Virus genome (UHGV): UHGV-1963518
DNA from: a virus
Length of the DNA: 16,197 nt
Strand: one strand, 5' to 3'
The position numbers and the translations under genes were made by a program. The notes under the pieces were generated by a model. The model saw nothing but the letters and a program-made list of their open reading frames with translations, had not been told where the DNA came from and made no database searches. Below are positions 9,009 through 9,491 of this stretch, piece by piece. How positions within the stretch are numbered: position 1 is the first letter of the stretch; each line of letters starts with the position of its first letter.

Positions 9009-9085
9009 TCCGTACGGTGATGGAATACCATTTGGGGATATCGTATAAATAAACCTTAGCATAGCGTTATATAAAGGTGATATAT

Positions 9086-9412
9086 ATGATTTACTTTGTG
9101 AAGAAATTTAGTGAAATAGTGGAAAAGTCTTCTGGTGCTTTGTCTTTCGGGATTATACAGAGTCTCGTTATGATAGGTATAATTGCAAATTTATCTTCTC
9201 AAACAGGTGTAAGATATTTCATCTTGCTTACTATTGCATTTATTGCAACTATAAGTATTGCATTATGTATGTTGAGTATAATATCTGTTATTAACGAAGT
9301 GATAGGAAAACATAAGTACATGAAGTTTTTGTTTGGGATTCTGCTGTACCCTTCTTTTATTGGTGTTATTCTTTCTGCGTACCTGAGTATTAAAGCACTA
9401 ATAGTCAGTTAA
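9086..9412 (+). CDS. Small integral membrane protein (about three predicted TM helices), AT-rich moron
   Basis: ORF 9077-9412; ATG at 9086 is 8 nt after AAAGG. Hydrophobic segments ALSFGIIQSLVMIGIIANL, FILLTIAFIATISIALCMLSIISVI and FLFGILLYPSFIGVILSAYLSI. Local GC about 30 percent. Confidence 0.6.
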   Translation: MIYFVKKFSEIVEKSSGALSFGIIQSLVMIGIIANLSSQTGVRYFILLTIAFIATISIALCMLSIISVINEVIGKHKYMKFLFGILLYPSFIGVILSAYLSIKALIVS

Positions 9413-9491
9413 TTATCTGGGCAATAAGCAATAAAGAAATTTCTATAGAAATAAGCCATCAAAAGGAACGACGATAATACGGATAATATCG

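What the first reader, a model, noticed from the sequence alone, without database searches (positions are those of the whole stretch)
9040..9480. Very AT-rich patch encoding a small three-TM membrane protein
GC is about 30 percent and the 108-aa product is almost entirely hydrophobic helices. Small membrane proteins in satellite or prophage moron positions are often superinfection-exclusion, abortive-infection or toxin-like factors.
Basis: inference. Interest (0 to 1): 0.5.

Follow-up and report, generated by a model that had tools for sequence, protein, structure and literature searches.

The report
Satellite-borne small inner-membrane protein gene
The AT-rich patch is a real accessory gene for a 108-residue, three-helix inner-membrane protein carried by an E. 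coli phage satellite (PICI); its small family has no described members, occurs mostly in such satellites and never in sequenced phages, and its function is still unproven.

Summary
Window 9040-9480 has about 31% GC between flanks of 54-56% GC. It holds one ORF (ATG 9086 to stop 9412, 108 aa) with a Shine-Dalgarno site, an N-terminal amphipathic helix and three hydrophobic helices, predicted N-in/C-out.

The gene is real. A 76%-identical copy in the same slot gives dN/dS 0.24, and about 33 diverged protein clusters of the same length share invariant residues.

The host element is a PICI satellite at tRNA-Thr, with integrase, int-alpA RNA, primase, an iteron origin, ProQ/FinO, PerC and a GapS1 defence gene. 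Compared with sister islands the patch is a cassette of about 410 bp, lying between a decayed ssb gene and proQ. Only 11 of 5,426 complete E. coli genomes carry it.

In 9 of 13 independent contexts, family members are the first gene after a PICI or cf-PICI origin. The other contexts are chromosomal islets and a plasmid. None of 50,697 phage genomes holds a member.

There is no match to holins, colicin immunity proteins, known exclusion proteins or PADLOC models.

The best guess, which is inferred, is an exclusion or immunity-type factor acting in the inner membrane. A LidI-like modulator of lysis timing is a close rival. Interest is moderate: a new, uncharacterised family with an ordinary role.

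The parts
9049..9457 (.). AT-rich accessory cassette of about 410 bp, absent from sister islands. The left edge lies between 9034 and 9049; the right edge lies between about 9451 and 9500.
   Evidence: 30.6% GC against flanks of 54-56%. Alignments with the insert-free island JP538 and with insert-bearing L003/L004. Only 11 of 5,426 E. coli genomes hold it.
9073..9080 (+). Shine-Dalgarno-like AAAGGTGA (core AGGTG at 9075-9079), 6 nt before ATG 9086
   Evidence: Read directly from the sequence
9086..9412 (+). Gene for the 108-aa inner-membrane protein (stop included). RefSeq calls the near-identical protein in strain 67-1 WP_000639079.1 'hypothetical protein'; most RefSeq genomes leave the ORF unannotated.
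   Evidence: ORF list. dN/dS 0.24 against the 76%-identical L003 copy, with differences by codon position of 19/7/37. About 33 homologous clusters. Annotation status.
9089..9127 (+). Residues 2-14: N-terminal amphipathic helix, predicted cytoplasmic (3 K/R, 2 D/E in residues 1-16)
   Evidence: AlphaFold2 helix 2-14; charge counts
9134..9193 (+). TM1 (residues about 17-36). Carries family-invariant S16-G17, Q25 and M29.
   Evidence: Hydropathy; invariant columns
9215..9292 (+). TM2 (residues about 44-69), the most hydrophobic segment. G57 is nearly invariant and I69 invariant.
9326..9397 (+). TM3 (residues about 81-104), with conserved P89 and a G93-x3-S97-A98 small-xxx-small motif
8790..9048 (+). 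Decayed ssb gene directly upstream. SSB residues 1-45 lie at 8790-8924 and residues 94-140 at 8941-9033, in another frame. The OB-fold core is deleted.
   Evidence: tblastn with intact SSBs of L002 and L003; RefSeq marks it as a pseudogene
9492..10022 (+). ProQ/FinO-domain gene directly downstream. Its N-terminus is frameshifted relative to sister islands: the native ATG at 9505 meets a stop after 31 codons, while ATG 9492 restores a 176-aa ORF.
   Evidence: Pfam PF04352, E 3.7e-25
8273..8500 (.). PICI replication origin: at least 9 iterons of GGTGAACAGT in both orientations within an AT-rich gap after the primase gene
   Evidence: the repeat finder families D1 and D2. Origin placement after pri-rep follows PMC6092414.
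6448..8262 (+). PICI primase/replicase (D5_N, DUF5906, Pox_D5). This is the landmark that family members follow in other satellites.
   Evidence: Pfam; contexts
10309..10332 (+). First terminator-like hairpin downstream (10-bp stem, 7 GC pairs), after perC

Best explanation
SHOWN. Window 9049-9457 is an accessory gene cassette in the variable region after the replication origin of an E. coli phage-inducible chromosomal island (PICI) integrated at tRNA-Thr. It encodes a genuine 108-aa protein under purifying selection. The protein has a short amphipathic N-terminal helix followed by three membrane-spanning helices.

It belongs to a small family with no described members, all about 103-121 aa. 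The members that could be placed are all in Enterobacterales. Most lie in PICI or capsid-forming PICI satellites, on the primase strand and as the first gene after the origin. A few are solo genes in chromosomal islets or on a plasmid. None is in a sequenced phage.

INFERRED.
- The N-terminus and loop 2 face the cytoplasm (N-in/C-out).
- The protein works alone in the inner membrane, because no partner gene is conserved.
- Most likely it is an exclusion or immunity-type factor. By helix-helix contact (invariant Q25 in TM1, small-xxx-small motifs in TM1 and TM3) it would block something that must cross or insert into the inner membrane. The likeliest target is the DNA-injection machinery of a superinfecting phage. 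A pore-forming toxin is less likely.

It is not a holin and not a member of any known immunity or exclusion family.

My confidence in the identity part is about 0.9. For the exclusion or immunity mechanism it is about 0.3; the confidence value given is for the whole statement.
For: A real gene:
- A stop-free run this long was reached in 36 of 20,000 shuffles.
- dN/dS is 0.24 and dS 0.60 against a 76%-identical copy in the same ssb-proQ slot.
- There are 10 representatives at E<=1e-3 among 1.84 billion proteins and about 33 clusters among 5.8 billion. All are of similar length and share invariant S16, G17, Q25, M29 and I69.

Membrane protein:
- Hydropathy and AlphaFold2 agree.
- K/R counts across 19 members are N-terminus 3.5, loop 2 2.3, loop 1 0.2 and C-terminus 0.

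Accessory and mobile:
- It is absent from about 1,500 E. coli genomes that carry the flanking ssb or proQ segments and present in 11.
- Strain 537-20 has the same backbone with the primase/origin followed directly by proQ.
- The block is 97-100% identical at protein level in islands whose integrases are about 29% identical and which sit at different attachment sites, yicC-dinD and thrW.
- GC3 is 0.29.

Link to satellites:
- The gene follows the primase/origin in L006-8, L011, L016, L031, L020, L021-22, L036 and L037-38.

Acts alone, in defence or immunity company:
- No partner is conserved in the chromosomal contexts.
- The Klebsiella plasmid copy lies beside HicAB and about 2.6 kb from a PD-Lambda-1 defence gene.
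- One copy is adjacent to an Imm53 immunity gene.
- The same island carries a GapS1 antiphage gene.

Not a lysis-cassette gene:
- Three subfamily representatives find nothing in 50,697 phage genomes.
Against: - No homology to any characterised exclusion, immunity or defence protein in Pfam, PHROGs, PADLOC, NCBIfam or the PDB. The mechanism therefore rests on context and analogy only.
- In this window there is no promoter-like site just upstream and no terminator before perC. That suggests co-expression with genes switched on at induction, rather than the constitutive expression typical of prophage exclusion genes.
- The conserved position right after the origin could point to a role in the satellite's own cycle.
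- Fold searches return only generic helical bundles.
- The defence or immunity neighbours are few and mixed.
Confidence: 0.35

Rival explanations
1. Lysis-timing or interference effector of the satellite cycle, working like LidI. The protein would be made with the island's induced operon and enter the inner membrane. There it would perturb the helper phage's holin/antiholin system or the proton-motive force. Lysis would then come earlier or later, to the benefit of the small satellite genome that packages quickly.
For: - The gene is co-oriented with, and apparently co-transcribed within, the rightward operon that follows the primase.
- It is recurrently the first gene after the origin, the place where PICIs keep phage-interference genes according to PMC6092414.
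- There is a precedent. PLE satellites encode LidI, a previously unannotated TM protein of 66 or 121 aa. It is seen only on phage infection and accelerates lysis (PMC7182436).
Against: - Solo homologues sit in chromosomal islets and on a plasmid with no satellite or phage nearby. A pure helper-lysis modulator would have no use there.
- The gene is rare and dispensable among otherwise identical islands.
- There is no similarity to holin or antiholin families.
Confidence: 0.25
2. Membrane-damaging toxin or abortive-infection effector. The protein would oligomerise and depolarise the inner membrane when produced, killing or arresting the cell before the phage finishes its cycle.
For: - It is a small, very hydrophobic protein (GRAVY 1.29) with small-xxx-small motifs that favour helix packing or oligomerisation.
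- The AT-rich gene would probably be silenced by H-NS until induced (my inference from general knowledge of enterobacterial H-NS).
- It keeps defence-type company.
Against: - No antitoxin, antisense RNA or sensor partner is conserved next to it.
- Solo chromosomal copies with intact ORFs argue against strong toxicity.
- Known small membrane toxins such as Hok and TisB are under 60 aa with one TM helix (my knowledge).
Confidence: 0.12
3. A housekeeping role for the satellite itself at the membrane, for example anchoring replication or assembly, given the conserved position beside the origin.
For: The gene comes 277-343 nt after the primase in nine satellite lineages from at least five genera.
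Against: - Most PICIs with the same primase and origin lack it.
- It also occurs outside satellites.
- In this window it is separated from the origin by two other genes.
Confidence: 0.08
4. A chance ORF or decaying remnant in foreign AT-rich DNA, with no function.
For: - Both neighbouring genes are damaged: ssb is a pseudogene and proQ is frameshifted.
- PGAP leaves the ORF unannotated in most genomes.
Against: - dN/dS is 0.24 with third-position bias.
- Homologues at 25-50% identity keep the same length and the same invariant residues.
- The shuffle test gives p of about 0.002.
- The ORF is intact in all copies examined.
Confidence: 0.03

Closest known systems
LidI of Vibrio cholerae PLE satellites (PMC7182436)
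   Same: Encoded by a phage satellite. A small TM protein (66 or 121 aa) with no homologues of known function, overlooked by annotation, and lying in the satellite's phage-responsive gene set.
   Different: LidI's sequence was not at hand, so similarity was not tested. It belongs to a different satellite type and host. LidI is confined to PLEs, whereas this family also occurs as solo chromosomal and plasmid genes. A lysis phenotype is shown for LidI and untested here.
Inner-membrane superinfection-exclusion proteins of phages and prophages (T4 Imm, P22 SieA, HK97 gp15; from my own knowledge)
   Same: Small stand-alone inner-membrane proteins carried as dispensable cargo by mobile elements. They need no partner gene and often have atypical base composition.
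   Different: No sequence match to any PHROGs or Pfam family, which include these proteins. The family is absent from all 50,697 phage genomes searched. No own promoter is evident in this window.
E1-type pore-forming colicin immunity proteins (ImmE1, 113 aa; Pfam Colicin E1/Ia immunity families)
   Same: About 110 aa, three TM helices, N-in/C-out (the ImmE1 topology is from my own knowledge), AT-rich genes on mobile elements, and action by TM-helix contact.
   Different: hhalign of the family profile against ImmE1 gives probability 0.2%. None of 19 members matches a colicin or microcin immunity family in Pfam. No colicin gene lies nearby in any context.
Class I holins (lambda S105, P22 gp13)
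   Same: About 105-108 aa with three TM helices.
   Different: The predicted topology is opposite (N-in/C-out). There is no charged cytoplasmic C-terminal tail (the protein ends ...SIKALIVS) and no adjacent endolysin or spanin. No PHROGs or Pfam holin family matches, and no phage genome carries the family.
Accessory or defence cargo of Gram-negative PICIs (for example GapS1 in this same island)
   Same: AT-rich, sporadically present genes carried by PICIs and exchanged between islands.
   Different: Known PICI defence cargo sits at the 3' end with its own signals. This gene sits just after the origin, inside the operon, and matches no PADLOC model.

Membership tests
PICI (phage-inducible chromosomal island), for the host element | Tyrosine integrase at a specific attachment site, AlpA-type control region, a primase/replicase followed by an iteron origin, a size of about 10-15 kb, and no lysis or tail genes | tested here: met
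   Partial tRNA at 1-50 and int-alpA RNA at 1479-1546. Integrase, AntA, primase and PerC by Pfam. Iterons at 8273-8500. Integration at tRNA-Thr next to proA in near-identical genomes. Definition from PMC6092414. Induction by a helper phage cannot be tested here.
Class I holins | Sequence membership in a holin family | tested here: not met
   No Pfam, PHROGs or NCBIfam match
Class I holins | N-out/C-in topology with a charged cytoplasmic C-terminal tail | tested here: not met
   K/R are concentrated in the N-terminus and loop 2, and there are none in the 4-residue C-terminal end. This is a prediction by the positive-inside rule only.
Class I holins | Located in a phage lysis cassette beside an endolysin | tested here: not met
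   The neighbours are ssb, proQ, primase or capsid genes. The family is absent from 50,697 phage genomes.
Pore-forming colicin immunity proteins (E1/Ia type) | Sequence or profile similarity to the family | tested here: not met
   hhalign against ImmE1 gives probability 0.2%. No Pfam match in any of 19 members.
Pore-forming colicin immunity proteins (E1/Ia type) | Gene adjacent to its cognate colicin gene | tested here: not met
   No colicin gene in any of the 13 contexts
Pore-forming colicin immunity proteins (E1/Ia type) | About 110 aa, three TM helices, N-in/C-out | tested here: met
   This is a resemblance only and does not by itself define membership.
Phage superinfection-exclusion membrane proteins (Imm, SieA, gp15 and others) | Sequence membership in a described Sie family | tested here: not met
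   PHROGs and Pfam give no match
Phage superinfection-exclusion membrane proteins (Imm, SieA, gp15 and others) | Blocks phage DNA entry without blocking adsorption | not testable with these tools
   Needs plating, adsorption and potassium-efflux assays
LidI-like satellite lysis modulators | Satellite-encoded small TM protein | tested here: met
LidI-like satellite lysis modulators | Expressed on helper infection and shifts lysis timing | not testable with these tools
   Operon placement fits induced expression, but this is not evidence of a phenotype
LidI-like satellite lysis modulators | Sequence similarity to LidI | not tested
The exhaustive phmmer search found only 10 proteins at E<=1e-3, but that library carries no names or organisms. 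The named or placed members and loci found in the other searches are all enterobacterial.
Type I or small membrane toxins (Hok, TisB, Ldr, Ibs) | Under 60 aa, a single TM helix, and a cis- or trans-antisense RNA antitoxin | tested here: not met
   108 aa with three TM helices. No Rfam antitoxin RNA in the window.

The most novel reading that the evidence does not exclude
The gene is the founding example of a satellite-associated family of stand-alone inner-membrane exclusion proteins. PICIs and capsid-forming PICIs would carry it at a fixed slot beside their origin. It would shield the satellite, helper and host from superinfecting phages, or from membrane-targeting toxins, through a target not yet known. 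That would be a new, PADLOC-invisible defence gene, and a candidate explanation for PICI-mediated superinfection immunity that lacks any recognised defence system, as reported for EcCIMP1 (PMC11773190). EcCIMP1 itself is not shown to carry this gene.
Probability: 0.25. Interest if true: 0.55.

Novelty: new variant of a known kind. Interest (0 to 1): 0.36.

Why it matters
Phage satellites are now recognised as major carriers of antiphage genes, but the known cargo sits at the island's end and is mostly cytoplasmic. A conserved small membrane protein in a fixed slot next to the origin would add a second cargo site and a membrane-level function to PICI biology. It occurs across satellites of Escherichia, Kluyvera, Hafnia and Pectobacterium.

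The family is very small, about 33 clusters among 5.8 billion proteins. Annotation pipelines call it inconsistently, so defence-system surveys cannot see it. It is short and acts alone, so cloning and testing it would be cheap.

If it turns out to be one more exclusion or immunity protein, the result is useful but not surprising.

Tried and rejected
- **Holin:** rejected. There is no family match, the predicted topology is opposite, there is no charged C-terminal tail or lysis cassette, and no phage genome carries the family.
- **Colicin E1-type immunity membership:** rejected, because hhalign gives probability 0.2% and no Pfam match appears in 19 members. The resemblance in size and topology remains.
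- **Toxin-immunity or two-gene module:** the upstream neighbours of the chromosomal copies (341 aa in L012, 270-aa LRR protein in L009) are unrelated to each other and match no Pfam toxin or immunity family or PADLOC model.
- **Sequence search of solved structures:** only a chance Ninjurin-2 hit at E 3.2.
- **A second, larger profile search:** did not extend the family beyond about 33 clusters, and no member carries a name or Pfam domain.
- **The search for related loci with the whole-family alignment:** failed for lack of a conserved 7-10 residue stretch. Subfamily alignments worked.
- **Classical moron architecture in the window:** no adjacent promoter or terminator. The internal promoter-like site at 9154-9183 is not conserved in L003 (read from the alignment).
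- **The palindrome TTTCTATAGAAA at 9440-9451** is not conserved in L003.
- **EcCIMP1 paper:** checked for a matching gene, and none is described.

Full report
**1. The observation**

- GC in 300-nt windows falls to 0.30-0.32 across 9001-9450. It is 0.56 at 8701-9000 and 0.62 at 9601-9900.
- Segment 9049-9457 is 30.6% GC, against 53.8% for the left flank and 56.4% for the right flank.
- The only sizeable ORF is on the + strand, from GTG 9077 or ATG 9086 to 9412.
It follows AAAGGTGA at 9073-9080 and coincides with the start of the homologues.
- AT-rich DNA is rich in stop codons, so a long open frame is unlikely by chance. A stop-free run of 115 codons was reached in only 36 of 20,000 shuffles of the segment.
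- Kyte-Doolittle analysis gives a GRAVY of 1.29 and three peaks above 1.9, at residues about 18-36, 45-69 and 82-100.
- AlphaFold2 on a 19-sequence alignment (pLDDT 76.7, pTM 0.60) predicts helices 2-14, 16-36, 42-73 and 77-107, the last with a kink at P89.
- Rfam finds no RNA family in the patch.

**2. It is a real gene**

- The word-indexed search of 5.8 billion proteins found two close clusters. P0001 is 98% identical and P0002 is 76% identical.
- P0002 lies on metagenome contigs L003 and L004 in exactly the same slot, between ssb and ProQ/FinO, followed by PerC.
- Comparing the window with L003 gives dN 0.145, dS 0.60 and dN/dS 0.24. Differences by codon position are 19/7/37.
- The cassette is about 80% identical at the DNA level and its flanks about 78%. 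The gene has therefore co-diverged with that island lineage and is not a recent arrival.
- An exhaustive phmmer search of 1.84 billion representatives found just 10 proteins at E<=1e-3. Two profile searches found 30 and 33 clusters.
- The intact members are nearly all 103-121 aa and 25-50% identical to the query. They share invariant S16, G17, Q25, M29 and I69, and nearly invariant G57, P89, G93 and A98.
- None carries a Pfam domain or a name other than 'hypothetical protein'.
- RefSeq annotates the near-identical E. coli protein as WP_000639079.1 in strain 67-1. It leaves the ORF uncalled in ABU 83972, A41 and IMT5155.

**3. The surroundings**

The window is a PICI satellite. Its features, in order along the window:
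- the 3' part of a tRNA at 1-50 and an int-alpA RNA at 1479-1546;
- a tyrosine integrase, an AntA antirepressor and an Icd-like segment;
- a D5_N/DUF5906/Pox_D5 primase at 6448-8262;
- an AT-rich gap after the primase with at least 9 GGTGAACAGT iterons in both orientations, at 8273-8500, which is the origin layout described for PICIs in PMC6092414;
- a 66-aa ORF, an ssb remnant, the membrane-protein gene, ProQ/FinO and PerC, then a terminator-like hairpin at 10309-10332;
- an excisionase-like HTH protein, and a GapS1 antiphage gene at 12339-13937 (NCBIfam 441.8 bits, cut-off 320).

Near-identical islands sit at tRNA-Thr next to proA. EcCIMP1 is drawn between the same chromosomal flanks, proA and yagU (PMC11773190).

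**4. The patch is an insertion-type cassette**

- In JP538 (L002) an intact 141-aa ssb is followed 36 nt later by proQ.
- In strain 537-20, which has the same thrW backbone, the primase and origin are followed directly by proQ.
- Three-way alignment puts the extra DNA between the ssb stop (9046-9048) and about 9451-9500.
- Only 11 of 5,426 complete E. coli genomes hold the cassette, all at 98.6-99.8% identity. About 1,500 genomes hold the flanking ssb or proQ segments.
- The block travels between islands. Its proteins are 97-100% identical in islands whose integrases are only about 29% identical. It sits at the yicC-dinD site in ABU 83972 and at thrW in IMT5155.
- In the window lineage both neighbours are damaged. 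Only SSB residues 1-45 and 94-140 survive, in two frames. ProQ has lost its native N-terminus by a 1-nt deletion, though ATG 9492 restores an ORF that holds the whole ProQ domain. The membrane-protein ORF is intact in every copy examined.

**5. Where the family lives**

I counted 13 independent contexts, and nine are PICI satellites. In all nine the gene is on the primase strand. Except in the window-type islands, it starts 277-343 nt after the primase stop, making it the first gene after the origin gap.

Satellite contexts:
- HK97-type capsid-forming PICIs: L006-8, L031, L011 (Hafnia alvei) and L016;
- PICIs with lambda E/D-type capsid genes: L020 (Kluyvera georgiana) and L037-38;
- Pectobacterium islands L021-22, where an NA37 gene follows;
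- L036;
- the two ssb-proQ lineages: the window type and L003/L029.

Non-satellite contexts:
- Klebsiella variicola plasmid pBM374-1, next to HicAB and about 2.6 kb from a PD-Lambda-1 defence gene at 772 bits. L030, a 76-kb IMG/VR viral contig with a 46%-identical copy, showed no satellite marker genes within 8 kb, and I have grouped it here;
- a Klebsiella aerogenes chromosomal islet;
- a site after a two-component system;
- a site near the bud operon, beside a TolA-C-like lipoprotein, with one copy adjacent to an Imm53 immunity gene.

No neighbour is conserved across these four. Representatives of all three subfamilies find nothing in 50,697 phage genomes. Most satellite copies have 8-15 points less GC than their surroundings (the Pectobacterium copy L021 only 2 points), while the plasmid copy matches its surroundings.

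**6. How it most likely works**

Shown:
- a stand-alone, conserved, very hydrophobic three-helix protein;
- dispensable for the island;
- mobile between islands;
- enriched in satellites and absent from sequenced phages.

Inferred:
- *Topology N-in/C-out.* Mean K/R counts are 3.5 in the N-terminus and 2.3 in loop 2, against 0.2 in loop 1 and 0 at the C-terminus. About 1.4 further K/R sit at the end of TM1 in one subfamily, so the call is less clean there.
- *Action by intramembrane contacts.* The evidence is an invariant polar Q25 in TM1, the S16-G17 cap and G93-x3-S97-A98 in TM3.
- *Protective role.* The protein needs no partner, also exists outside satellites, and sits beside toxin-antitoxin, immunity or defence genes. 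An exclusion or immunity-type role is therefore the best single guess, at about 0.3.

The main rival, at about 0.25, is a LidI-like modulator of lysis timing or other interference effector.
- The gene appears co-transcribed with the post-origin operon in this window.
- That position is where PICIs keep interference genes.
- PLE satellites set a precedent with LidI.

In two other satellites (L006 and L020) a promoter-like site lies about 40 nt upstream of the gene; its first hexamer looks like part of the origin iterons (my reading of the sequences). Only cf-PICI L006 also has a terminator-like hairpin 150 nt downstream, which makes that copy moron-like. The number of such sites does not exceed the shuffles. 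The expression state is therefore unresolved and is the most useful thing to measure.

**7. Comparison with known families**

- Nothing at E<=0.1 in Pfam, PHROGs, PADLOC or NCBIfam; the only listed matches are chance ones at E 0.2-6.5. A Pfam scan of all 19 members gives only scattered chance hits.
- The PDB sequence search gives one chance hit.
- Structure searches give generic helical bundles.
- *Class I holin:* fails on sequence, predicted topology, C-terminal tail, gene neighbourhood and absence from phages.
- *E1-type colicin immunity:* the family resembles ImmE1 in size and topology. It fails on profile similarity (hhalign probability 0.2%) and on the absence of any colicin gene nearby.
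- *Hok/TisB-type toxin:* fails on size, helix count and the lack of an antisense RNA.

The gene is thus a new, unnamed family whose likely role belongs to a known kind: small membrane cargo proteins of mobile elements.

**8. Verdict**

Novelty is a new variant of a known kind. Interest is moderate at 0.36. The recurrent slot beside the origin across satellite types, and the family's invisibility to annotation and defence finders, are worth a cheap experiment. Nothing here overturns current understanding.

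Noticed in passing
window 12339-13937 (+), within the AT-rich stretch from about 12100 to 14100: The 532-aa ORF is a GapS1-family antiphage protein (NCBIfam NF047931, 441.8 bits, cut-off 320). 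PADLOC v2.0.0 does not recognise it. Sister islands carry other cargo at this 3' site: DUF4747 in IMT5155 and an 'RNA-binding domain' protein in ABU 83972.
   Followed up: partly
window 8790-9048 (+): The satellite's ssb gene is a pseudogene. Residues 1-45 and 94-140 survive in two different frames and the OB-fold core is deleted. The copy is intact in related islands (L002, L003, L029).
   Followed up: yes
window 9492-10022 (+): ProQ/FinO has a 12-nt deletion and a 1-nt deletion near its 5' end. The ancestral start at 9505 runs into a stop after 31 codons. An upstream ATG at 9492, in the shifted frame, gives a 176-aa ORF with the complete ProQ domain. RefSeq calls it 'frameshifted'. Whether it is functional is unknown.
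   Followed up: partly
window 8273-8500: At least 9 copies of the iteron GGTGAACAGT, in both orientations, lie in the AT-rich gap after the primase gene. This is the expected PICI replication origin. It also explains the second AT-rich dip at 8250-8550.
   Followed up: yes
window 1-50 and 1479-1546: The window opens with the 3' part of a tRNA, which is tRNA-Thr in near-identical genomes and marks the attachment site. An Rfam int-alpA RNA (45.5 bits) follows the integrase gene.
   Followed up: partly
window 3623-5209 (+): The mechanical 528-aa ORF is probably not one gene. Only its last 45 residues or so match an Icd-like cell-division inhibitor. Sister islands annotate minus-strand YlcI/YnfO-family and hypothetical genes in the equivalent stretch. 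AT skew is strongly negative at 4050-4650.
   Followed up: partly
L009 4435-4830 and L035 6414-6815 (chromosomal site near the bud operon): A small lipoprotein with a TolA C-terminal-like domain (lipobox LSGC) lies just upstream of a family member in a Klebsiella/Enterobacter-like chromosome. A periplasmic TolA-domain decoy next to this membrane protein could point to protection against Tol-dependent colicins or phages. It is one locus seen in two samples.
   Followed up: partly
L005 3850-5358 (-), Klebsiella variicola plasmid pBM374-1: A PD-Lambda-1 defence gene (PADLOC 772 bits) and a HicAB toxin-antitoxin pair lie within 3 kb of the 46%-identical homologue.
   Followed up: no
L006 7931-7960 and 8472-8492; L020 7933-7962: In two other satellites (L006, L020) the family gene has a sigma-70-like site about 40 nt upstream, whose -35 hexamer (TGAACA or TAGACA) looks like part of the origin iterons by eye. 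In cf-PICI L006 a terminator-like hairpin follows the gene. This suggests an autonomous transcription unit, possibly controlled by Rep binding.
   Followed up: no
window 15150-16197: A further stretch of about 30% GC lies at the right end of the window, beyond an Arm-type integrase fragment seen in relatives. It was not examined.
   Followed up: no
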